A stretch of DNA of 64,000 bases from Candidatus Micrarchaeota archaeon (GTDB lineage Archaea; Micrarchaeota; Micrarchaeia; Anstonellales; JAHKLY01), in contig JAHKLY010000002.1 of NCBI GenBank assembly GCA_020854825.1, positions 31,487 to 95,486 on the forward strand, in the 5' to 3' direction. The notes beneath the pieces are model-generated. The model was given only the letters and a program-made list of their open reading frames with translations, had not been told where the DNA came from and did not search any database. Position numbers and translations under genes: made by a program. Positions 24,648 to 43,959 of this stretch are shown one piece after another. How positions within the stretch are numbered: the stretch's first letter is position 1; the number at the start of each line of letters is the position of its first letter.

Positions 24648-26117
24648 ATGAATGAGGAGGAATTTATTAAAGGAATTTTAGATAAAGGAATGCGATTAAC
24701 CCCAGAAGCATCAAAGTTGATTTTAGAAGTAAAAGATAAAGAAAAAATTCTTGATAATTTAATAAGAGAAGGATTTACAATAATAACTAAAGAAGATTTA
24801 GAATCAATTATCGCAGAATATGAAAAAATTCCAGAGCCAGAAGTTGAAATTAAAAGAAAAAACTCTTTTGAACCAATAGCAAAAGATTATGCTTTTAATA
24901 TTAGAGTTTATCCAGATAAAGACATAACAAACAATTCAAGATGCACTGGAAAACCTGAAGATTTTGTTATGTATTTTAGAAGTAGGTTATTAATGACTAA
25001 ATCTGTTTTATCTGAGCGTATCGGTGAAACACCAATAATTAGAATTAATGAATTAAAAACAAGAAACAATTCAGATGTTAGATTAATAGGTATGGTTATT
25101 GATAAAAGAGATTCACAAAAAGGAAATTTAATAGTTGAAATTGAAGATGAACAAGAAGTATGTTTAGTTATTATGATGAAAAGTGATGAAAATGTATATG
25201 CTTTAGCAGATCAAATTGTATTAGATGATATTTTATTATTTGAAGGAAGAGTTTATAATGGAATTTTAATAGCAAAAGAAATTATTTGGCCAGATATACC
25301 TATAATGAGGAATAAAAAAACAATAGAAGAGGATCTAGCTGTTGCTTATTTATCAGATCTGCATGTTGGGAGTAAATTATTTATGGAAAAAGAATTTAAC
25401 AAATTCTTAGATTGGATAAATGGGAATGGAGAAGATAAAGAGTTAGCAGGTAAGATAAAGTATATTAGTATTTCTGGAGATATAGTTGATGGGATAGGAA
25501 TTTATCCTAGACAAGAAGATGAATTAGTAGTTAAAGATATTTATAAACAATATGGAATTTTTATGGATTTAATGGAGAAAATACCAGATTATATTAAAGT
25601 TATTGTAAGTCCAGGAAATCACGATGCAGTAAGAAGAGCACAACCTCAACCACAGTTACCTAAGGAATTACTTAATGGAAAAACATTAAATGTTGGTAGT
25701 CCTTCTTGGATTGATTTAGAAGGATTTAAACATTTAATTTACCATGGGGATTCACTTGATTCAATAATTTCTTCTTTATCAAATTGTGATCATACTCATC
25801 CGGAAGTGCCTATGATAGAACTTTTAAAAAGAAGGAATTTATCTCCAATTTATGGAAGGAATCCAATTGTTCCTGAAAAAAAAGATTATCTATTCATTGA
25901 TCAAATACCAGATGTTTTACATATGGGACATGTACATAAAAATGGATACTCTTTGTATAGAGGAACACATATAATTAATTCAGGAACATTTCAAGAACGT
26001 ACAAATTTTCAAATAAAACAAGGACATATTCCAACTCCGGGCATAGTGCCAATTTTATGTATGAAAACTGGAGAGGTAGTGCATAAAAAATTTGTAGCTG
26101 GTGTTAATTATGGTTGA
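24648..26117 (+). CDS. dp1: DNA polymerase II (PolD) small subunit DP1
   Basis: Calcineurin-like phosphoesterase motifs (SGDIVDG, GNHD, GHVH) in the C-terminal half plus an OB region. About 490 aa. Confidence 0.85.
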   Translation: MNEEEFIKGILDKGMRLTPEASKLILEVKDKEKILDNLIREGFTIITKEDLESIIAEYEKIPEPEVEIKRKNSFEPIAKDYAFNIRVYPDKDITNNSRCTGKPEDFVMYFRSRLLMTKSVLSERIGETPIIRINELKTRNNSDVRLIGMVIDKRDSQKGNLIVEIEDEQEVCLVIMMKSDENVYALADQIVLDDILLFEGRVYNGILIAKEIIWPDIPIMRNKKTIEEDLAVAYLSDLHVGSKLFMEKEFNKFLDWINGNGEDKELAGKIKYISISGDIVDGIGIYPRQEDELVVKDIYKQYGIFMDLMEKIPDYIKVIVSPGNHDAVRRAQPQPQLPKELLNGKTLNVGSPSWIDLEGFKHLIYHGDSLDSIISSLSNCDHTHPEVPMIELLKRRNLSPIYGRNPIVPEKKDYLFIDQIPDVLHMGHVHKNGYSLYRGTHIINSGTFQERTNFQIKQGHIPTPGIVPILCMKTGEVVHKKFVAGVNYG

Positions 26118-29100
26118 AATTACAAAAAAAATGGAAAATTATTTTAATATGCTTGAAATGTATTTAAATAAAGAATATACTATTGCACAAAAAGCTAGAA
26201 AAAAAGGATTAGATCCAAAAACGGAAGTAGAAACTAAATTTGCACAAGATGTTGCAGGAAGAGTTGAAGGATTAGTAGGTCCGGAAGGAATTGCAGAAGA
26301 AATTAGAATTTTAGAAAACCAAGGAATGCAAAGAACAATTATTGCATATGAAATTGTAAAAAAATTAGTGAATTTAAATAAAGAAAAAGGAGTTGAAAAA
26401 GCAATTGATCAAGCTGTAAGAACAGGAGTTGCTATTTTAACCGAAGGAGTATTAGTTGCACCAACAGAAGGAATAGGAGGATTAAAAATAAATCAAAATC
26501 CGGATGGTACTGATTATTTATCTATATATTTTTCAGGACCTATTAGAAGTGCAGGAGGGACAATTGCAGCATTAAGTGTAGTATTAGCAGATGTTGCAAG
26601 AAGAGAAGTTGGAATTAAGGATTATAGACCAACAGATACGGAATTAGATAGATATGTTGAAGAAATAACTATTTATGATGCAAGAGATTCACGATTACAA
26701 TATATGCCAACAGAACAAGAAATAAAAACAATTGTAAAAAATTGTCCTGTTTGTATTGAAGGAGATCCAACAAGTAAATTTGAAGTTGCAGTATATAGGA
26801 ATATGGAAAGAATAAAAACAAATAGATTAAGGGGAGGTATGGCATTAGTTATAGGAGAGGGAATAGCACAAAAAGCACCAAAAGTTTTTAAATATACAAA
26901 ACAAATTGGATTAGATTGGGATTGGATTGAATCAATTATGAAAGTTAAATCATCAAGCAAAGGAACTGTTGAAATAAAACCAATAAATACATATATAAGT
27001 GAAATACTTGCAGGAAGACCTATTTTTTCATATCCTATGGTAAAAGGAGGATTTAGGTTAAGATATGGAAGAACAAGAATAAGTGGTATAATGGCCAAAT
27101 GTATTCATCCTGCCACTATGGAAATTTTAGATGAATTTCCTGCAATAGGTACTCAATTAAAAATCGAAAGGCCGGGAAAAGGGTGTATTGTTTTGCCTTG
27201 TGATTCAATAGATCCACCTATTGTTAAACTTACTAATGGAGATGTAATTAGAGTTAATTCTATACAAGAAGCAAAACAATTGAAATCCCAAGTAGAAGAA
27301 GTATTATTTTTAGGAGATATGTTAATTACAATTGGGGATTTTATAAAATCAAATCATCCATTAATACCAGGAGCTTTTTGTGAAGAGTGGTGGGATGTAA
27401 TTTGTGAATCTAAAAATTGTAAAATAAAAGAGGATTTTGATGTTTATGATGCATTTGAATTTTCAAAAGAAAATGAAGTTCCTTTACATCCGAGATATCT
27501 TTATTTTTGGGGGGATATAAGTTCTACGCAATTAAAAGAATTATCAGAAGAAATAGTAAACGCAGAAATTGAATTTGAGTCATTAGGTATTTTAGGTAAA
27601 ATTTCTAATTTCAAATTATCAACAGAAAACAAAAAAGTTAAAAGAACATTAGAGGAATTAGGAGTAATACATAGAGTTAGAGAAAATAAAATAATATTAG
27701 ATCCAGAAACTGCATATTCTGTTTTAACTACATTAGGAATAAAAAATGGTAAAGACCTTTCATTAGATAAATTCAATAAAGTTTGGGATGAGGACAAAAA
27801 AGTTTTGGAAATGTTGAATGAATTATCTGGAATAGAACTTAAAAATAAAGCACCCATATATATTGGTTCAAGAATGGGCCGTCCTGAAAAAGCTAAAGAA
27901 AGAGAAATGACTCCAGATGTTAATGTTTTATTTCCATTAGGACATATAAGCAAACACAGAGATATTATTAAAACATATAATGAATTAAAAGAAAAAACAA
28001 AAGATAGGGGAATAAAAATAGAAATCTCGAGAAGAAAGTGTAAAGAATGCGGGAAAATAACTTTTTATAATTTATGTGATTGTGGGAGTGAAACAGAACC
28101 TCAAAAAATATGTTCGAAATGTGGGAGAGAAATAAAGGTAGGGGATGAATGTCCTTGTGGAGGAAAGGTTTGTATTTATGATTCAAGATCCATTAATATT
28201 GTAAATATATTGGATGAACTAAAAGAAAGAATTGGGAATAAATTACCAGATAAAATAAAAGGAGTAAAAGGATTAATTAATAGCTCAAAAATACCTGAAA
28301 GACTTGAAAAAGGAGTATTTAGATCAAAATATGGATTATCTTGTTTTAAAGATGGGACTTCTAGATTTGATTTTACAGATGCACCTATGACTCATTTTAA
28401 ACCAAATGAAATTGGAGTTTCAGTTGAAAAGATAAAAGAATTAGGATATAAACATGATTATTTAGGAAAAGAAATAACAGACGGAGATCAAGTTATTGAA
28501 ATGTTTCCTCAAGATTTTATTGTTTCTGAAGATGGAATAAAATTTTTTATTAAAACAGCCAATTTTGTAGATGAGATATTAGTATATTTATATCATTTAC
28601 CTCCATATTATAATATTAAGACGCATGAAGATGTAATTGGTCATTTGACAGTTATACAATCCCCCCATACTTCTGCTGGAATTTTATCAAGACTTATTGG
28701 GTATACAAAAGGAAGAGTTGCATATATGCACCCGTATTTAGTTTGTGGTACAAGGAGAAATTGTGATGGAGATGAAAATTGTTTTATGGTTTTAATGGAT
28801 GTGTTGTTGAATTTTTCAAGAAGCTACTTACCTGAAACAAGAGGGGGAACTATGGATATTCCAATTGTTTTAACTACAATCTTAAATCCTAAAGAAGTTG
28901 ATGATGAAGTTCATGTAATGGAAGCAATAAATAAACTTCCCTTAGAATTTTATGAAAAAACGGAATTATTTGAAAACCCAAGTAATCTTAACTTAGAATT
29001 AATTGAAAATAAGTTAGAAAAACCAGATAAGTATGAAAATATATATTTTACACATGATGTTTCTAATATAAATCTTGGACCAACAAGAACTACTTATGTT

Positions 29101-29508
29101 CAATTTAAGAGTATGAAAGATAAAGTTGGTGCACAATTTGAGTTACATAAAAAGATAAGAGCAGTTGATGCAGTTGATGCAGCTGAAAAATTAATTTTGA
29201 GTCATTTTATACCAGATCTTTATGGTAATTTAAGAAAATTTTCACAACAAACTTTTAGGTGTGTAAATTGTAATGAGAAATATAGGCGGGTTCCTTTAAT
29301 TGGTAAATGCAGAAAATGTGGTGGAAAAATTGTTTTAACTGTATATCAAGGAGGAGTAACTAAATATCTTAAATTATCTCAAGAAATGGCGCAAAAATAT
29401 GATTTGCCTATTTATCTTAAACAGCGCCTTGAATTATTAGAAAAAGATATTGCAAGTATTTTCGTAGACGAAAAAGCCCCGCAAGTCTCACTTTCTGAAT
29501 TTATGTAA
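26110..29508 (+). CDS. dp2: DNA polymerase II (PolD) large subunit DP2 (no intein)
   Basis: MVEITKKMENYFN..EYTIAQKARKKGLDP N-terminus. Multiple Cys clusters (CKECG..CDCG, CVNCNEKY..CRKCGG). About 1130 aa, overlapping the dp1 stop. Confidence 0.9.
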   Translation: MVEITKKMENYFNMLEMYLNKEYTIAQKARKKGLDPKTEVETKFAQDVAGRVEGLVGPEGIAEEIRILENQGMQRTIIAYEIVKKLVNLNKEKGVEKAIDQAVRTGVAILTEGVLVAPTEGIGGLKINQNPDGTDYLSIYFSGPIRSAGGTIAALSVVLADVARREVGIKDYRPTDTELDRYVEEITIYDARDSRLQYMPTEQEIKTIVKNCPVCIEGDPTSKFEVAVYRNMERIKTNRLRGGMALVIGEGIAQKAPKVFKYTKQIGLDWDWIESIMKVKSSSKGTVEIKPINTYISEILAGRPIFSYPMVKGGFRLRYGRTRISGIMAKCIHPATMEILDEFPAIGTQLKIERPGKGCIVLPCDSIDPPIVKLTNGDVIRVNSIQEAKQLKSQVEEVLFLGDMLITIGDFIKSNHPLIPGAFCEEWWDVICESKNCKIKEDFDVYDAFEFSKENEVPLHPRYLYFWGDISSTQLKELSEEIVNAEIEFESLGILGKISNFKLSTENKKVKRTLEELGVIHRVRENKIILDPETAYSVLTTLGIKNGKDLSLDKFNKVWDEDKKVLEMLNELSGIELKNKAPIYIGSRMGRPEKAKEREMTPDVNVLFPLGHISKHRDIIKTYNELKEKTKDRGIKIEISRRKCKECGKITFYNLCDCGSETEPQKICSKCGREIKVGDECPCGGKVCIYDSRSINIVNILDELKERIGNKLPDKIKGVKGLINSSKIPERLEKGVFRSKYGLSCFKDGTSRFDFTDAPMTHFKPNEIGVSVEKIKELGYKHDYLGKEITDGDQVIEMFPQDFIVSEDGIKFFIKTANFVDEILVYLYHLPPYYNIKTHEDVIGHLTVIQSPHTSAGILSRLIGYTKGRVAYMHPYLVCGTRRNCDGDENCFMVLMDVLLNFSRSYLPETRGGTMDIPIVLTTILNPKEVDDEVHVMEAINKLPLEFYEKTELFENPSNLNLELIENKLEKPDKYENIYFTHDVSNINLGPTRTTYVQFKSMKDKVGAQFELHKKIRAVDAVDAAEKLILSHFIPDLYGNLRKFSQQTFRCVNCNEKYRRVPLIGKCRKCGGKIVLTVYQGGVTKYLKLSQEMAQKYDLPIYLKQRLELLEKDIASIFVDEKAPQVSLSEFM

Positions 29509-29564
29509 AATTTACTTTTGTAAATTTGACATATTTACAACAGAGTTGTAAATCATGTGATAAC

Positions 29565-29620
29565 CTTTTTCTTTCTTTTTAAAAAGAAAGAAAAACGTTA
29601 ACGAAAAAGAAAAGAAACAA
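29565..29620. repeat. orphan copy of a polypyrimidine/polypurine palindromic element (TTTCTTTCTTTTT|AAAAAGAAAGAAA + ...AACGAAAAAGAAAAGAAA) also found in two tRNA introns
   Basis: Perfect 26-bp palindrome at 29568..29593. About 55 bp aligns with 43851..43905 and with the minus strand of about 30040..30112. Confidence 0.5.
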
Positions 29621-29741
29621 AAAGAAAGAAAAATAAAGGAAAAAAATAAAACTTTAATGAAAAAGAGTATTTTAGTAGAGTTATAAAAAAGAAATTAAAA
29701 GCAACAAAAGAACTTTCTGATTTAGCAAATGAGATATTAAG

Positions 29742-30014
29742 TTAATCATCGTTTTTCATGCTTTCTAATGCGCTTAAAATAGTCCAAATTTGAGTTCTTG
29801 CATGTGAAGGAATATTTATATCTTCTGCTATCTCTTCAAGAGAATAAACAACTGCGCCAATTTTTAAAGTAGCATCTTCATTTGTTTTTAATCTTTTTTT
29901 AGCATCTGTAATTGTTTTTCTAATATTTTTTGGAATAGAAGTATCTTCTTCAATTTCATCCATAATATCTATAATATCATTAAGATTAATTTCTGTCATA
30001 TTCACCACCCTCAC
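29742..30014 (-). CDS. small conserved archaeal protein (UPF0147-like)
   Basis: 90 aa, acidic/helical. IPKNIRKTITDAKKRL...IPSHARTQIWTILSALE is a pattern I associate with the UPF0147 family. Recalled from memory, not verified. Confidence 0.35.
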   Translation of the reverse strand: MRVVNMTEINLNDIIDIMDEIEEDTSIPKNIRKTITDAKKRLKTNEDATLKIGAVVYSLEEIAEDINIPSHARTQIWTILSALESMKNDD

Positions 30015-30024
30015 AATTAATAAG

Positions 30025-30233
30025 CGGGCCTGGAGAGATTTATTTGTTTATTTCTTTTCTTTTTAGTTGAGTTTTTTATTTTCTTTTTTAAAGAAAAGAA
30101 AAAAGTCATTGAACTCTCGACCATCAGCTTAGAAGGCTTACGTGATATAGTTTTCTTTTTTGGAAAACGTAGCTTTTTTCTTTTACAAAAGAAAAAAGAT
30201 CGTGCCGCTCTGTCCAAGCTGAGCTACAGGCCC
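30025..30233 (-). tRNA. intron-containing tRNA, candidate tRNA-Arg(UCU), with at least 2 introns (one in the T-loop, one 5' of the anticodon arm)
   Basis: Minus strand: GGGCCTG-TA-GCTC-AGCTTGGACA-GAGC-G ... TAAGC-CTTCTAA-GCTGA-TGGTC-GAGAG-TTCAA[69-nt intron]AT-CTCTC-CAGGCCC-G. The acceptor, D and T stems pair perfectly and the T-loop reconstitutes TTCAAAT. The anticodon arm TAAGC/CTTCTAA/GCTGA has one A.G mismatch, and the exact 5' exon junction is ambiguous because of a repeated CACG. Confidence 0.5.
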
Positions 30234-30543: not shown

Positions 30544-32322
30544 TTACATTTTTTCTAATTCTGTTAAGCCTAATAAATTCATTCCTGTTTTAAGAGTTTC
30601 TGCTGTTTTTTCTAAAATTAATAATCTAAAGTTCTGTGCATCCTTATTTTCTTCTTTAAGAACAGAAACAGCGCTGTAAAAACTTGCAAATTCAGATGAA
30701 GTGCGCAATAAGTAATCACATATTTGATGTGGTTTTAATTCGTCTGCAGATTTTTCAATAATTTCTGAAAATTCTGATAGTAAAAGTAATAGTTTTTTTT
30801 CAGTATCATTTATTTTAATATTTTGTATATCTATCTTGAATGTTGGTTTTTTCTTTTTGAGAATACTTTTACATCTTACATAGGAGTACATAACATAGGG
30901 TGCAGAATCACCTTCTAAACTTAAAGCTTCCTCCCAATCAAAAGCAATTTTAGTTTCAGGTGCATATTTTAAAATGTAAAAGATCATTGAGTTAGTTGCT
31001 ATTGTTTTTGCTATTTTTTTATCTTCACAGTTTTTTTCTAATGCTTTTTCTATTCCTTGTTCAATAAAATCATCTACTGAATATCCTATCCATGTTCCTT
31101 TTCTTCCTGAAAATTTAATATTTTTTAAAGTGACTTGTTCATAAGTTAAATGATGATAATTTTCTGATTGTTTTGTATAACCCATTTGATTTAAACTATG
31201 TTTAACTACTTTTTGAGGATAAATTTGTTCATTGCCAATCACATTTACTATTTTATCTGCTTTAATTTTTTTCTTAGAACCTTTTTTATTGGTCATATAT
31301 GCAATTTTTTTAGAGGGTTGTGTCATAAATTTAGAAAAATTAAAATCACTTTTTAATAAACCAAATTTCCACATGTGAAAAATAATGTCTTTCCCAGTAT
31401 AGGTTGCAATTCCATTACTTCTTATTAAAATTTTATCTGGATTTTTCATTTTATCAAATTCTTTCCCAGACATTTTTATCACATAACATCCGTTATTCTC
31501 TCCAGTTTTTTCTAAATGAATTATTTTATTTTCTTTTAAGTGTTTGATTCCTTCATTAAAAATAGTATTCATTATATCTGATTCAAATACTAATATTTCG
31601 TGTTCAATATTGAAATTAAAACCAGTTTCCCATTGTGCTTTAACACATTTTTCACTTATTTCTCTTGCTTTTTTTGATATTTTTTCGTCTCCTTGTTCTA
31701 ATTTATGTAATAGTTCTTCTATTTCTTTTTTGATATTGGGATCTTCTGTTTTTAAAGCAACTTTAACATATTCTCTTCCCATCCATTGATCAAATTTAAG
31801 ATTACTATCTGGTTTATTATTTAAGTTTAGAATTCCCCATAAACTTTGTGCAACCTGTAATCCTAAATCATCAATATAATCCATTCTAATAACATCATAT
31901 CCTGAATATGACATTAAATTTGATACTGAATTTCCTAATACTGCATTTCTAAAGTGTCCTATATGCCATGGTTTATTTGGATTAACTGAAGGGAATTCAA
32001 TTATCACTGTTTTTTTATTTTTTTTATTTTTTTCTTTATTTTTCAAAACTTCTTCAAAAAAATTATTTGAAAAATAGATATTGATGTATGGGCCAATACA
32101 GTCTATTTTTTCAATATTTTTATCTTTTAATTCATTACTTATTTTTTTTGCTATTAAATTAGGATTTGTTTTATCTTTTTTAGCAATAGAAAAAGCGATA
32201 GTACACGCTAGATCGCCAAATGAACTTTTTGGTTTTTCTAAAGAGGAATAACATATTGGATAGTCTAAATTAGTAATTTTATTTAGTTTTATCGCTATTG
32301 TTTCCTTTATTTTAGTATACAT
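30544..32322 (-). CDS. argS: arginyl-tRNA synthetase
   Basis: HIGH motif (PNKPWHIGHFRNAVLG). N-terminal Arg-tRNA-synthetase additional domain. C-terminal DALR-like helical domain. 592 aa. Confidence 0.85.
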   Translation of the reverse strand: MYTKIKETIAIKLNKITNLDYPICYSSLEKPKSSFGDLACTIAFSIAKKDKTNPNLIAKKISNELKDKNIEKIDCIGPYINIYFSNNFFEEVLKNKEKNKKNKKTVIIEFPSVNPNKPWHIGHFRNAVLGNSVSNLMSYSGYDVIRMDYIDDLGLQVAQSLWGILNLNNKPDSNLKFDQWMGREYVKVALKTEDPNIKKEIEELLHKLEQGDEKISKKAREISEKCVKAQWETGFNFNIEHEILVFESDIMNTIFNEGIKHLKENKIIHLEKTGENNGCYVIKMSGKEFDKMKNPDKILIRSNGIATYTGKDIIFHMWKFGLLKSDFNFSKFMTQPSKKIAYMTNKKGSKKKIKADKIVNVIGNEQIYPQKVVKHSLNQMGYTKQSENYHHLTYEQVTLKNIKFSGRKGTWIGYSVDDFIEQGIEKALEKNCEDKKIAKTIATNSMIFYILKYAPETKIAFDWEEALSLEGDSAPYVMYSYVRCKSILKKKKPTFKIDIQNIKINDTEKKLLLLLSEFSEIIEKSADELKPHQICDYLLRTSSEFASFYSAVSVLKEENKDAQNFRLLILEKTAETLKTGMNLLGLTELEKM

Positions 32323-33810: not shown

Positions 33811-33847
33811 ATCGCGCAGGGTAACACCCCCCGCTAAATTAACAATA

Positions 33848-34006
33848 TTACTTTTTCTTTGTAGTTTTTTTCTTTGTTGTTGTTTTTTTAACTGCAGTTT
33901 TTTTTGTTGCAGGTTTTTTCTTTACTGTTTTTTTCTTTGTTGTTGTTTTTTTAACTGCAGTTTTTTTTGTTGCAGTTTTCTTTTTTGCACATTTTTTTAC
34001 AACCAT
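33848..34006 (-). CDS. 52-aa Lys/Thr-rich basic repeat protein (histone H1/Hc1-tail-like), putative nucleic-acid binding
   Basis: ATG(34006)..TAA(33848) encodes MVVKKCAKKKTATKKTAVKKTTTKKKTVKKKPATKKTAVKKTTTKKKTTKKK. It contains a tandem KKTAVKKTTTKKK repeat produced by a direct DNA repeat. Confidence 0.35.
   Translation of the reverse strand: MVVKKCAKKKTATKKTAVKKTTTKKKTVKKKPATKKTAVKKTTTKKKTTKKK
33865..33975. repeat. two 48-bp direct repeats (period 63 bp), T-rich on the + strand
   Basis: tttttttctttgttgttgtttttttaactgcagttttttttgttgcag occurs at 33865..33912 and again at 33928..33975. Confidence 0.6.
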
Positions 34007-34160
34007 TTGTAAAACACCTCAAATTTTTTATAGTTTAGTCTCTGCAATAACTTTTATAAACGTTCCTTCAATTTTTAATTTTTCTAAAATTTTATTTTTT
34101 AAAATTTTTCATTAAAAAATTTAGAAAAGTTTTATAAATTAGTTTATTTAAATTTAAATC

Positions 34161-43790: not shown

Positions 43791-43959
43791 GCAGGGCTGA
43801 CAGATCGGCTATGTGTTCGGCTGCAGACCGAAATAGGGGGGTTCGAATGATCTTTTTCTTTCTTTTGAGAAAAGAAAGAAAAACCTCAACGAAAAAGAAA
43901 GAAAATGAGGTTTCTTAAAAAAAGGAAGAAACAGGAAAGAACAACTCCCTCGCCCTGCT
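43791..43959 (+). tRNA. tRNA-Cys(GCA) with an about 98-nt intron in the T-arm (after the T-loop)
   Basis: GCAGGGC-TG-ACAG-ATCGGCT-ATGT-G-TTCGG-CTGCAGA-CCGAA-ATAG-GGGGG-TTCGAAT[intron]CCCTC-GCCCTGC-T. Perfect 7-bp acceptor and 5-bp anticodon stems. Anticodon GCA. TATA-like TTTATAAA about 35 bp upstream and an oligo-T after the 3' end. Confidence 0.6.

What the first reader, a model, noticed from the sequence alone, without database searches (positions are those of the whole stretch)
29565..29620. Family of homologous polypyrimidine/polypurine palindromic elements shared by two tRNA introns and one intergenic site
The T-arm introns of the tRNA-Arg candidate (minus strand, about 30040..30112) and of tRNA-Cys (43849..43946) both begin TGA(T)C-TTTTTCTTT(C)TTT... 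and share about 55 nt, (T)nCTTTCTTTT-AAAAGAAAG(A)n-AAC(C)TCAAC(G/T)AAAAAGAAA(A)GAAA. A third copy sits in intergenic DNA just after dp2 (29565..29620) with a perfect 26-bp palindrome TTTCTTTCTTTTT|AAAAAGAAAGAAA. The second intron of the tRNA-Arg candidate carries a related hairpin, TTTTTTCTTTT-GT-AAAAGAAAAAA. Homologous introns in different tRNAs at analogous positions suggest intron mobility (transposition of tRNA introns has been described in Thermoproteales). The orphan copy suggests the element can exist outside tRNAs, for example as a MITE-like element or a relic of a lost tRNA.
Basis: seen in the sequence. Interest (0 to 1): 0.75.

Follow-up and report, generated by a model that had tools for sequence, protein, structure and literature searches.

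The report
Three-armed hairpin module in DPANN introns
The repeat after the DNA polymerase gene belongs to a family of small three-armed hairpin elements, apparently undescribed, that fill the tRNA and rRNA introns and sit right after genes in many tiny DPANN archaea; their sequence symmetry suggests a three-stranded fold, which has not been shown.

Summary
The window comes from a Micrarchaeota (DPANN) archaeon and holds four copies, not three, of one architecture. It runs: short leader, pyrimidine arm (T5CT3C...), complementary purine arm, linker, then a third purine arm that mirrors the second. All three introns of tRNA-Arg(UCU) and tRNA-Cys(GCA) carry it, and so does the site right after dp2.

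The similarity is not compositional. A structure-only scan finds exactly these 4 sites, against 0.15 expected. The dp2 copy is conserved in two related species. Two T-loop introns have precise empty sites in relatives.

The same module occurs in Micr-, Iain-, Aenigm- and Nanoarchaeota. It starts at 5' splice sites in the D, anticodon and T loops, in 16S rRNA introns, at the first base after complete tRNAs, or at ORF stop codons. In every copy whose host gene was identified, it is in sense orientation.

The three arms change in concert. The third arm equals the parallel complement of the first at 11.4 of 12 positions (0 of 20,000 permutations reach this).

My best reading is a transcribed, copy-exchanging intron module whose mirror symmetry fits an intrastrand triplex. 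Its function is unproven. The MITE and lost-tRNA readings are not supported.

The parts
29561..29565 (+). Leader TAACC of the dp2-downstream copy. UAAC pairs with GUUA of the linker, and the last C faces a C (C.C mismatch).
   Evidence: (MFE ((((.(((((((((((((....))))))))))))).)))) ). Leader/linker covariation across 18 variants is.
29566..29580 (+). Pyrimidine arm TTTTTCTTTCTTTTT (arm 1).
29581..29595 (+). Purine arm AAAAAGAAAGAAAAA (arm 2), the perfect Watson-Crick partner of arm 1.
29596..29603 (+). Linker CGTTAACG. Its 5' half pairs with the leader, and it is itself palindromic.
   Evidence: This is the commonest linker of the family.
29604..29617 (+). Third arm AAAAAGAAAAGAAA, a mirror of arm 2 (parallel complement of arm 1) for the first 9 nt and then out of register by one A.
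29618..29650 (+). A/G-rich tail of variable length. It is much longer in L007.
26101..29508 (+). dp2 (PolD large subunit) gene, whose 3' end hosts the orphan copy.
29509..29554 (+). 46-nt insertion between the dp2 stop and the element. It is present in the window and L007 and absent in L009. It is flanked by ATGTAA and ATGTGA and contains ATTTAC/GTAAAT inverted motifs.
30025..30233 (-). tRNA-Arg(UCU) gene in three exons (30233-30206, 30140-30109, 30039-30025).
   Evidence: The ortholog with a single intron is in L009.
30040..30108 (-). Arg T-loop intron (69 nt, position 58/59, with an ambiguity of up to two bases because of the flanking A's). Leader TGAC 30108-30105, arm 1 30104-30090, arm 2 30089-30072 (one G>T mismatch), linker CTCAACT 30071-30065, third arm 30064-30051, rest 30050-30040.
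30141..30205 (-). Arg intron 1 (65 nt, position 26/27 or 29/30). Arm 1 TTTTTTCTTTT 30197-30187, arm 2 30184-30174, linker GCTACGTTTTCC 30173-30162, third arm AAAAAAGAAAA 30161-30151. This is the fourth copy, with a different linker.
   Evidence: It is conserved in L007 and L009.
43791..43959 (+). tRNA-Cys(GCA) gene, exons 43791-43846 and 43945-43959 (U73 discriminator).
43847..43944 (+). Cys T-loop intron (98 nt, 58/59 or 59/60). Leader ATGATC, arm 1 43853-43866, arm 2 43870-43883, linker CCTCAACG 43884-43891, third arm 43892-43905 (exact parallel complement of arm 1), TGAGG 43906-43910 pairing with CCTCA, and GAAC 43939-43942 able to pair with G53UUC.

Best explanation
The 29561-29650 sequence is a non-intronic member of a dispersed family of about 55-100 nt structured modules found in DPANN archaea.

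Grammar of a module: a 3-4 nt leader (UAAC or UGA), a C, a pyrimidine arm, a short loop, the Watson-Crick purine arm, a C facing the first C, the leader's complement (GUUA or UCA), 1-3 nt, then a third purine arm that mirrors the second arm. The third arm is therefore the parallel complement of the first.

Shown:
- The module is repeated within genomes and shared across phyla.
- In every copy whose host gene I identified, it is in sense orientation.
- It begins exactly at a 5' splice site, at the first base after a complete tRNA, or at a stop codon.
- Two of its T-loop introns are each missing from one related species.
- Its leader helix, its hairpin and its third arm all covary.

Inferred:
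- The module acts as RNA. It must be transcribed through, because it lies inside tRNA genes that are presumably needed.
- The hairpin starts at about intron base 2. It can therefore supply the helix on the intron side of the 5' splice-site bulge.
- In T-loop introns the exon G53-U54-U55-C56 pairs with GAAY near the intron's 3' end. That leaves an AA|N bulge at the 3' splice site. This is a relaxed bulge-helix-bulge motif of the kind cut by the broad-specificity splicing endonuclease known from Micrarchaeota.
- The third arm lies along the hairpin as an intrastrand purine-motif triplex (A.A-U, G.G-C), capped at the C.C+G layer. This would make a compact, nuclease-resistant intron core. This step is the most speculative.
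- Copies spread or homogenise between transcribed sites. The mechanism is unknown. Gene conversion between copies is one possibility.
- Copies behind dp2, other ORFs and tRNAs are insertions tolerated in 3' untranslated or trailer RNA. Their T-run may add to termination.
For: Family and homology:
- Motif hits are 3 against 0.04 expected.
- A structure-only scan finds exactly 4 sites in the window against 0.15 in Markov shuffles, all in the sense orientation of their host gene.
- The same scan gives 36 copies in 196 kb of DPANN loci and 36 in 232 kb of metagenome loci. Both sets were chosen for a motif hit, so about 12 and 10 of these are extra, unselected copies. It gives only 2, both G+C-rich, in 478 kb of bacterial loci that matched the motif by chance.
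- The extra copies carry unrelated linkers (GCCCTCGGGG, CGCTGGCG, CCTGTACT, CATTAATG, GCTACGTTTTCC) but the same three-arm symmetry.

Third arm:
- In 18 copies found with a pattern that did not include the third arm, it matches the parallel complement of arm 1 at 11.39 of 12 positions. A direct repeat of arm 2 would match at 7.56.
- At the informative positions the score is 6.39 of 7, against 4.86 +/- 0.22 for permuted pairs. None of 20,000 permutations reaches it.
- Orthologous tRNA-Pro introns in two relatives carry T5CT5CT3 / A5GA5GA5 / A5GA5GA and T5CT4CT2 / AGA4GA5 / A5GA4GA2. In the third (L113, T5CT3CT5) the third arm has decayed.

Hairpin:
- 871 Watson-Crick pairs in 59 copies, with a conserved single C.C mismatch in 47.
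- Leader-helix covariation gives 2.94 of 4 pairs against 1.97 +/- 0.19 permuted, 0 of 20,000.
- Predicted folds leave the third arm unpaired.

Context:
- Rfam places tRNA 3' ends at or 1 nt from TAACC in five loci.
- Intron contexts were resolved by in-silico splicing.
- Five independent ORF stop codons lie within 9 nt upstream of arm 1. In three of them the stop is the leader's own TAA.
- Two 16S rRNA introns carry the core motif.

Turnover:
- Two empty sites.
- At the dp2 site the leader and linker differ between species: TGACC+CCTCAACG, TAACC+CCTCAACG and TAACC+CGTTAACG.

Background:
- In the Micrarchaeon ARMAN-2, 56% of tRNA genes are disrupted. They include a tRNA-Cys intron at 59/60 of hBH type, and the epsilon2 endonuclease cuts relaxed motifs (PMC3239211).
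Against: - No RNA data exist for these organisms here. Splicing, transcription through the T5-T6 runs, and any triplex are all unverified.
- Purine-motif triplexes are well documented for DNA. To my knowledge they are little documented in natural RNAs.
- In the window's Cys intron, and in the L113 T-loop intron, the third arm is enclosed in a hairpin loop (CCUCA...UGAGG, CCUG...CAGG). That is hard to reconcile with a fully extended third strand.
- Arms with two or fewer C's are partly self-mirror. Arm 1 can therefore also pair conventionally with the third arm over 7-12 bp. RNAfold does exactly this for the Arg T-loop intron.
- Mixed-sequence-arm relatives, including the rRNA introns, keep the core TAACC-T5 ... 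A5-CGTTAACG-A5 but not the mirror. Part of the conservation therefore rests on primary sequence of unknown meaning.
- The bulge-helix-bulge model is relaxed and incomplete. Arg has an A.C mismatch in the central helix, and intron 1 is ambiguous.
- I did not locate the endonuclease gene in this genome.
- The polarity of each empty site (gain or loss) is unresolved.
Confidence: 0.55

Rival explanations
1. The structure matters in DNA, not RNA. The sense (non-template) strand folds into an intrastrand triplex or H-DNA when it is single-stranded during transcription, R-loop formation or replication. This would resemble the bacterial TMECO/BoxC triplex motifs. The fold would promote pausing, recombination and local rearrangement, and that would explain the spread and turnover of copies. 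Introns would simply be the places where such insertions survive.
For: - The block order pyrimidine-purine-purine, with a mirror third block, is exactly the purine-motif intrastrand triplex described for bacterial genomes. There it is tied to genomic instability (PMC4666352).
- Purine-motif triplexes are established for DNA (my own knowledge).
- The loci are visibly unstable. There is an ABC operon insertion/deletion next to the dp2 copy and a 46-nt insertion beside it. There are also tandem duplications of linker plus third arm in L111 and of a larger unit in L117 and L118.
- The purine-rich transcript would favour R-loops (inference).
Against: - All copies whose host gene was identified are in sense orientation. 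They begin exactly at RNA-defined boundaries: the 5' splice site, the base after N73, or a stop codon. That points to selection or insertion at the RNA level.
- The leader helix covaries, with some G.U pairs on the sense strand. This fits a single-stranded fold of that strand, but it cannot tell RNA from single-stranded DNA.
- A structure that destabilises tRNA genes presumed to be needed should be selected against.
Confidence: 0.2
2. The orphan copy, and the copies behind tRNAs and ORFs, are archaeal oligo-T transcription terminators. They would work in both directions, because all three arms read as T-runs on one strand or the other. The intronic copies would be secondary captures of the same sequence.
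For: - The element starts with T5CT3C within 5 nt of stop codons and tRNA 3' ends.
- In the window it lies between convergent genes, dp2 (+) and UPF0147 (-).
- In L007 and L009 it lies between dp2 and the TTTAAATAT box of the next operon.
- Archaeal RNA polymerase terminates at oligo-T tracts (my own knowledge).
Against: - The same T-runs sit in sense orientation inside tRNA-Cys and tRNA-Arg and in 16S rRNA, all of which must be read through.
- T-runs alone do not explain the Watson-Crick hairpin, the covarying leader helix, the conserved C.C mismatch or the mirror covariation of the third arm.
- At 28% G+C, T5 runs are common inside genes (inference).
Confidence: 0.15
3. The similarity is only low-complexity A/G and T/C bias in an A+T-rich genome, with no homology.
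For: - The genome is 28% G+C.
- The arms are simple sequence, and dinucleotide shuffles of the elements still fold fairly well (z-scores only -1.6 to -3.0).
Against: - Exactly 4 sites against 0.15 expected.
- 3 motif hits against 0.04 expected.
- Non-repetitive leader and linker sequences are shared across phyla.
- The copy is conserved at an orthologous site.
- Permutation tests give 0 of 20,000.
- The scan finds only 2 hits, both G+C-rich, in 478 kb of bacterial control loci.
Confidence: 0.02
4. The orphan copy is a relic of a lost tRNA gene, or a classical MITE moved by a DNA transposase.
For: Most family members lie in or beside tRNA genes. The element is short, non-coding and multicopy.
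Against: - In L009 dp2 coding sequence runs right up to the element (TGA|TAACC), and no tRNA fragment flanks it in any of three species.
- I saw no terminal inverted repeats. At the one insertion junction I examined there was no target-site duplication beyond an ambiguous AA.
- Orientation is strictly sense.
- No hit in 2.9 million viral contigs.
Confidence: 0.05

Closest known systems
Transposed tRNA introns of Thermoproteales (Fujishima et al. 2010, as summarised in PMC4033280)
   Same: Similar intron sequences occur in different tRNA species and at different positions. This implies intron gain by some form of transposition. Hosts have a broad-specificity splicing endonuclease and many non-canonical introns.
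   Different: - The clade is different (DPANN, several phyla).
- The shared part is a defined three-arm module at the intron's 5' end.
- The same module also sits outside introns: in tRNA trailers, at ORF ends and in rRNA introns.
- As far as I know, no mirror-repeat architecture was described for the Thermoproteales introns.
ARMAN-2 (Ca. Micrarchaeum acidiphilum) disrupted tRNA genes and epsilon2 EndA (PMC3239211)
   Same: Same phylum. A tRNA-Cys(GCA) has a T-loop intron at 59/60 with a relaxed hBH motif. There are T-loop introns in other tRNAs, and a tRNA-Pro with a degenerate D-arm, as seen here in L113, L117 and L111.
   Different: In the passages I read, that paper describes intron positions and the enzyme. 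It does not describe a conserved intron-borne sequence or structure module, nor its occurrence outside introns.
Bacterial intrastrand triplex motifs, e.g. TMECO in BoxC repeats: 5'-CCCTCNCCC-N3-6-GGGNGAGGG-N3-GGGNGAGGG (PMC4666352)
   Same: Same block order on one strand: pyrimidine stem, loop, purine stem, loop, second purine stem (purine motif). Both are multicopy, non-coding and associated with variable loci.
   Different: - TMECO is G/C-rich, bacterial and intergenic, and was shown to fold as DNA.
- Here the arms are A/T-rich and 9-15 nt long, and the second loop is 7-12 nt and partly base-paired to a leader.
- The host is archaeal, and the element is transcribed inside tRNA and rRNA genes.
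ENE / MALAT1-type RNA triple helices
   Same: A hairpin-borne helix that clamps an A-rich stretch of the same RNA. MALAT1's triple helix also lies next to a tRNA-like processing site.
   Different: Those have two U-rich strands and one A-rich strand (U.A-U). The sense RNA here has one U-rich and two A-rich strands. Only the antisense transcript would fit the ENE chemistry.
H-DNA-forming polypurine/polypyrimidine mirror repeats
   Same: Arm 2, the linker and the third arm form a textbook mirror repeat.
   Different: H-DNA needs only the mirror repeat in duplex DNA. Here a third, inverted-repeat arm on the same strand and a covarying leader helix are also conserved.

Membership tests
Archaeal endonuclease-spliced (BHB) tRNA introns | Removing the insertion restores a canonical tRNA. 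| tested here: met
   ARAGORN calls tRNA-Cys(GCA) and tRNA-Arg(TCT) after in-silico excision. L009 carries the Arg gene naturally without the T-loop insertion. This applies to the three intronic copies, not to the 29561-29650 copy.
Archaeal endonuclease-spliced (BHB) tRNA introns | [quoted passage not shown] | tested here: inconclusive
   T-loop introns: exon G53UUC can pair with GAAC (Cys), GAAU (L113, L117) or AAAU (Arg, one A.C mismatch). An AA|N bulge follows at the 3' splice site, and the hairpin starts at intron base 1-2. Arg intron 1 gives only 3+3 bp with a 2-nt bulge. No canonical hBHBh' motif was found.
Archaeal endonuclease-spliced (BHB) tRNA introns | Cleavage by EndA and ligation by RtcB. 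| not testable with these tools
   This needs RNA data or enzymology. I did not search for the EndA gene of this genome.
Transposed (mobile) tRNA introns | Homologous intron sequence in different tRNA species or positions of one genome. | tested here: met
   Arg T-loop, Arg position about 26-30 and Cys T-loop in the window. Also tRNA-Pro at 37/38, a probable tRNA-Ser(UGA) at 37/38 (parsed by eye) and another T-loop intron in contigs of the same or sister genomes.
Transposed (mobile) tRNA introns | Presence/absence polymorphism (empty sites) between relatives. | tested here: met
   The Arg T-loop intron is absent in L009. The T-loop intron of a second tRNA is absent in L111 but present in L113 and L117. 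Gain versus loss is not resolved.
Intrastrand triplex motif (purine motif, Hoyne/Holder class) | Three consecutive blocks on one strand, with block 2 the Watson-Crick complement of block 1 and block 3 the mirror of block 2. | tested here: met
   13 of 18 unbiased copies match at 12 of 12 positions.
Intrastrand triplex motif (purine motif, Hoyne/Holder class) | Short loops (1-6 nt in the ITxF definition). | tested here: not met
   The second loop is 7-12 nt or more, and its 5' half pairs with the leader. The ITxF search settings quoted would therefore not pick up the element.
Intrastrand triplex motif (purine motif, Hoyne/Holder class) | Physical formation of a triplex. | not testable with these tools
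   Secondary-structure programs do not model triples. This needs CD, UV melting, NMR or chemical probing.
MITE | Terminal inverted repeats and target-site duplication. | tested here: not met
   Comparing the filled and empty Arg sites shows only an ambiguous AA at the junction. The inverted repeat is internal, and the 3' ends differ between copies.
Archaeal oligo-T terminator | A T-run of 5 or more directly downstream of a gene, causing transcript 3' ends. | tested here: inconclusive
   The T-run and its position fit at dp2, other ORFs and tRNAs. The same T-runs also lie inside tRNA and rRNA genes in sense orientation. Transcript 3' ends are not testable here.
ENE-type U.A-U RNA triple helix | Two U-rich strands clamping one A-rich strand. 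| tested here: not met
   The sense strand has one pyrimidine arm and two purine arms. Only the antisense strand would qualify.

The most novel reading that the evidence does not exclude
A conserved single-stranded three-arm fold is the defining core of a cross-phylum family of DPANN introns and gene-end elements. It would be a hairpin with a mirror-image purine third strand, that is an intramolecular purine-motif triplex capped by a C.C+G layer. It would be needed for their processing, their stability or their spread between RNA-defined sites. As far as I know, this would be the first natural A.A-U/G.G-C RNA triplex module, and the first structural signature tying together archaeal tRNA introns, rRNA introns and 3'-end elements.
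Probability: 0.3. Interest if true: 0.88.

Novelty: new variant of a known kind. Interest (0 to 1): 0.72.

Why it matters
How archaeal tRNA introns arise and move has been debated since the Thermoproteales 'intron transposition' work. No sequence or structural feature has been tied to that mobility.

This family offers one: a recognisable module with a strict grammar. It is shared by tRNA introns at many positions, by rRNA introns, by tRNA trailers and by ORF ends, across several DPANN phyla. Empty sites and concerted three-arm changes are visible between close relatives.

That makes several questions directly testable:
- Does the broad-specificity endonuclease need the module?
- Does a purine-motif triplex form in RNA?
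- Do the non-intronic copies get excised?

There is also a practical point. Neither ARAGORN nor Rfam found any tRNA in this 64-kb window, so standard tools miss the tRNA genes here. A grammar-based scan could help find interrupted tRNA genes that such tools miss in DPANN genomes.

Tried and rejected
- ARAGORN and Rfam on the raw window (gathering threshold, and E up to 5) find no tRNA and no family at the elements. The consensus T-arm pattern GTTCRAWYC is absent from the window.
- Brute-force intron removal with ARAGORN works for single-intron genes. It is too permissive to fix exact junctions. Arg intron 1 therefore stays ambiguous between 26/27 and 29/30.
- Contigs carrying the identical ArgRS are the same strain and uninformative.
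- The relatives P0002, P0004 and P0005 lack the tRNA next to ArgRS, or their contig ends too early. The polarity of the empty site could not be set.
- The viral contig scan found nothing.
- Literature searches for a description of this module in DPANN found none.
- Ideas I considered by eye and dropped:
  - C/D-box sRNA in the intron. ATGATC and GTGATAA resemble a C box only weakly, and there is no D box.
  - Integron attC or IS200/IS605-type hairpin ends. TAAC, TCAA and GTTAAC resemble their cleavage motifs. However, there is no conserved target sequence 5' of the element, orientation is strictly sense, and I did not search for a transposase.
  - A symmetric DNA-binding site. A two-fold protein would need inverted flanks, not mirror flanks.
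  - A split tRNA with an internal promoter. The 3' exon is only 15 nt.
  - A hidden CCA exon behind trailer copies. I saw no evidence for one.
- I looked for a pseudoknot between the hairpin loop and the sequence after the third arm. It is present in some copies (L054 CCC/GGG, L090 UCCA/UGGA, L012 UUAC/GUAG) but is not general.
Full report
**What is at the coordinates**

The window is 28% G+C. Its arginyl-tRNA synthetase is closest to proteins from Candidatus Micrarchaeota, a DPANN phylum.

The perfect 26-bp palindrome lies at 29568-29593, and nothing like it arises in shuffles. It is the centre of a longer hairpin, 29561-29600. UAAC pairs with GUUA, a C faces a C, and 15-nt arms TTTTTCTTTCTTTTT and AAAAAGAAAGAAAAA pair perfectly. 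The predicted energy is -14.3 kcal/mol, z = -3.0.

After the linker CGTTAACG comes a third block, AAAAAGAAAAGAAA, and then an A/G-rich tail. The element starts 52 nt after the stop codon of dp2 (26101-29508, +). It lies between dp2 and the convergent UPF0147 gene.

**The two tRNA genes**

ARAGORN and Rfam report no tRNA anywhere in the 64 kb. Removing the insertions in silico gives two tRNAs.
- tRNA-Cys(GCA): 43791-43959, with one intron at 43847-43944.
- tRNA-Arg(TCT): minus strand, 30233-30025, with introns at 30205-30141 and 30108-30040.

The Arg gene lies about 300 nt from the ArgRS gene.

**Is the similarity more than composition?**

Yes, on four counts.
- The repeat finder joins the three named sites at 74-79% over 56-58 nt.
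- A motif from the non-palindromic part, AAAAANSTYAACKAAAAAGAAA, hits exactly those three sites with up to 2 mismatches. The expectation is 0.04.
- I wrote a scanner that ignores the linker sequence. It asks only for a pyrimidine 9-mer containing a C, its Watson-Crick partner within 22 nt, and its parallel complement 3-16 nt further on. One mismatch is allowed in each.
- That scanner finds exactly four clusters in the window on both strands. They are the dp2 copy, the Cys intron and both Arg introns. Each is in the sense orientation of its host gene. Twenty Markov shuffles average 0.15.

The 'related hairpin' of the other Arg intron is therefore a fourth full copy: TTTTTTCTTTT GT AAAAGAAAAAA GCTACGTTTTCC AAAAAAGAAAA.

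**Relatives**

Contigs with the identical ArgRS are the same strain. Two relatives are informative.

L007 (95% ArgRS identity):
- It has both Arg introns, almost unchanged.
- It has the dp2 copy.

L009 (77% ArgRS identity):
- It has Arg intron 1 but no T-loop intron. Its T arm reads GAGAGTTCAAATCTCTC, where the window has GAGAGTTCAA[TGAC...AAATAA]ATCTCTC. This is a precise empty site.
- It keeps the dp2 copy, which there starts directly after the stop codon (ATGTGA|TAACC).

The orphan copy is therefore neither a tRNA relic nor a recent random insertion.

Its leader and linker differ between the three species: TGACC+CCTCAACG, TAACC+CCTCAACG and TAACC+CGTTAACG. This is either compensatory change or conversion from another copy. 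A tRNA-Pro intron found in the same metagenome (L113) is nearly identical to the window's dp2 copy over the first 49 nt.

A second empty site exists. One tRNA has a T-loop intron in L113 and L117 but not in L111. These three contigs are about 80% identical to each other in DNA.

**The family is much wider**

A scan of one genome per species gave 87 hits. About 60 are single chance matches in bacteria with no hairpin. About 25 are DPANN archaea: Micrarchaeota, Iainarchaeum, Aenigmatarchaeota, Nanoarchaeota and unclassified archaea. All of these show the whole architecture.

A metagenome scan whose pattern left the third arm free gave 30 more loci.

The structure-only scanner then found further copies with unrelated linkers. 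These two locus sets had been chosen for a motif hit, so only the surplus copies are unselected.
- 36 copies in 196 kb of DPANN loci, about 12 of them extra.
- 36 copies in 232 kb of metagenome loci, about 10 of them extra.
- 2 copies, both G+C-rich, in 478 kb of the bacterial chance loci.
- One Micrarchaeota locus (L079) has six copies in 8 kb.

No viral contig carries the pattern.

**Where the copies sit**

- Directly after complete tRNAs. Rfam places the tRNA 3' end at, or 1 nt from, the T of TAACC in L012, L054, L101, L102 and L121.
- At the 5' end of tRNA introns. Upstream flanks read by eye place them in D-loop, anticodon-loop (including 37/38) and T-loop positions.
- In two introns of an archaeal 16S rRNA gene in L116. 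One is within the gene. The other lies between CCGTAG and GGGAACCTGCGG, just before the GATCACCTCC end.
- At ORF ends. Five independent cases have a stop codon within 9 nt upstream of arm 1. In three of them the stop is the leader's own TAA.

Every copy whose host gene could be identified is in sense orientation.

**Grammar and covariation**

In 59 non-identical copies the hairpin has 871 Watson-Crick pairs. It also has a conserved single C.C mismatch in 47 copies, at the junction between the leader helix and the arms.

The leader helix takes many forms, among them UAAC/GUUA, UAAU/AUUA, UGUC/GACA, UGG/CCA, AAG/CUU and UGA/UCA. Across 18 variants it forms 2.94 of 4 pairs, against 1.97 +/- 0.19 for permuted partners. 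None of 20,000 permutations reaches that.

The third arm gives the most striking result. I used 18 pyrimidine/purine-armed copies from the scan that did not constrain the third arm.
- It equals the parallel complement of arm 1 at 11.39 of 12 positions, and 13 copies are perfect.
- A direct repeat of arm 2 would match at only 7.56.
- At the informative positions the score is 6.39 of 7, against 4.86 +/- 0.22 for permuted pairs. None of 20,000 permutations reaches it.

Variants such as T5CTCT3/A5GAGA3, T6CT3CT2/A6GA3GA2, T5CT5CT2/A5GA5GA2 and T5CT3CT2C3/A5GA3GA2G3 show the concerted change.

Orthologous tRNA-Pro introns in two of three sister genomes carry three different, internally consistent arm sets. 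In the third genome (L113) the third arm has decayed.

The third arm usually begins G-A5-G. It therefore also 'complements' the mismatched C of the first strand.

**What the symmetry means**

Template-directed copying produces direct or inverted repeats, not mirror repeats. Symmetric proteins do not recognise mirror repeats either.

The one known physical reason I am aware of for the order pyrimidine-purine-mirror purine on a single strand is an intrastrand purine-motif triplex. Bacterial genomes contain such motifs, for example TMECO in BoxC repeats: CCCTCNCCC-loop-GGGNGAGGG-loop-GGGNGAGGG. These fold as DNA in vitro and mark unstable loci (PMC4666352).

Caveats:
- Arms with two or fewer C's are partly self-mirror. 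Arm 1 can then also pair conventionally with the third arm, and RNAfold does this in the Arg T-loop intron.
- In the Cys intron, and in the L113 T-loop intron, the third arm is enclosed by a CCUCA/UGAGG or CCUG/CAGG stem.
- Mixed-sequence-arm relatives, including the rRNA introns, keep only the core TAACC-T5 ... A5-CGTTAACG-A5.
- Some copies add a loop-to-tail pairing consistent with a third strand that runs from the base of the hairpin to its tip: L054 CCC/GGG, L090 UCCA/UGGA, L012 UUAC/GUAG.

**How it most likely works**

Shown:
- The family, its grammar and its covariation.
- Its RNA-defined boundaries and its sense orientation.
- Its presence or absence between relatives.

Inferred:
- The module is transcribed, since it lies inside tRNA and rRNA genes.
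- The hairpin begins at intron base 1-2, so it can supply the helix next to the 5' splice-site bulge.
- In T-loop introns G53UUC pairs with GAAC, GAAU or AAAU just before an AA|N bulge at the 3' splice site. This puts the splice at 58/59, in agreement with the empty site.
- That is a relaxed motif of the kind cut by the epsilon2 endonuclease of Micrarchaeota. In ARMAN-2, 56% of tRNA genes are disrupted, and tRNA-Cys has a 59/60 hBH intron (PMC3239211).

Whether the third arm forms a triplex in RNA or in single-stranded DNA, or instead serves as an alternative pairing partner, is open. So is the role of the non-intronic copies, which may act as stabilisers, as terminators, or do nothing.

**Comparison and novelty**

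Homologous introns in different tRNAs are known from Thermoproteales (PMC4033280). Disrupted tRNA genes are known from Micrarchaeota, and intrastrand triplex motifs from bacteria.

Four literature searches found no description of this module. The module is a conserved three-arm unit shared across DPANN phyla by tRNA introns, rRNA introns, tRNA trailers and ORF ends.

I rate it a new variant of known kinds.

Noticed in passing
window 29509-29554: A 46-nt insertion lies between the dp2 stop codon and the element. It is present in the window and L007 and absent in L009. It is flanked by a near-duplicate ATGTAA / ATGTGA and contains four ATTTAC/GTAAAT inverted motifs, including the palindrome TTGTAAATTTGACATATTTACAA. 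It looks like a tiny insertion with a duplicated target, or a set of protein-binding sites.
   Followed up: partly
window 29650-29742; L007 12581-15465; L009 7281-7600: Between UPF0147 and dp2, L007 has a three-gene ABC transporter operon. L009 keeps only about 280 nt of its two ends, and the window has none. This is a deletion series right next to the element.
   Followed up: partly
whole window: Neither ARAGORN nor Rfam (gathering threshold or E<=5) detects a single tRNA in 64 kb. The consensus T-arm pattern GTTCRAWYC is absent (2.7 expected). The two tRNA genes I found are missed by both tools because of their non-canonical introns.
   Followed up: yes
window 30025-30233 and 30544-32322: The tRNA-Arg(UCU) gene lies about 300 nt from the arginyl-tRNA synthetase gene, on the same strand, with a small zinc-ribbon gene between them. 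The arrangement is kept in L007 and L009 but not in L008.
   Followed up: no
window 33837-34007: A run of about eight 15-nt tandem units (TTTTTCTTTGTTGTT... on the + strand) overlaps a 52-codon ORF called on the minus strand in the identical-strain contig. By eye it would encode a Lys/Thr-rich five-residue repeat.
   Followed up: no
L116 4973-5050 and 6446-6525: An archaeal 16S rRNA gene carries two near-identical introns of about 80 nt with the core TAACCTTTTT ... AAAAACGTTAACGAAAAA. In these, the 5' TAACCTTTT pairs with a 3' AAAAGGTTG, and the A5-CGTTAACG-A5 stretch sits in a hairpin loop. A further insertion of about 80 nt lies just upstream, near the 16S 3' end.
   Followed up: partly
L118 2580-2850 (also L102, L124): A complete tRNA-Cys(GCA) is followed by the element. 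Next comes a second T-arm-like hairpin plus the acceptor 3' strand TCCCAGC and a second, degenerate element. A third TCCCAGC follows. The unit 'tRNA 3' end plus element' appears to have duplicated in tandem.
   Followed up: no
L111 7150-7330; L117 11090-11260: Orthologous tRNA-Pro introns are expanding by tandem duplication. L111 has three repeats of GAAAAACGTTAACGAAAAAGAAAAGAACAAA (end of arm 2, linker and third arm). L117 has two repeats of a unit of about 75 nt.
   Followed up: no
L001 417-2612 vs L007 1-1262 and L008 1-4024: The anaerobic ribonucleotide reductase NrdD is 731 aa in the window's strain. In two relatives it is 1480 and 1953 aa and carries intein and LAGLIDADG domains. Intein presence therefore varies between close relatives.
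   Followed up: no
59 copies across loci: A single C.C mismatch is conserved in 47 of 59 hairpins at the junction of leader helix and arms. The third arm starts with a G at the matching position. The three bases could form a C+.G-C layer. No explanation was tested.
   Followed up: partly
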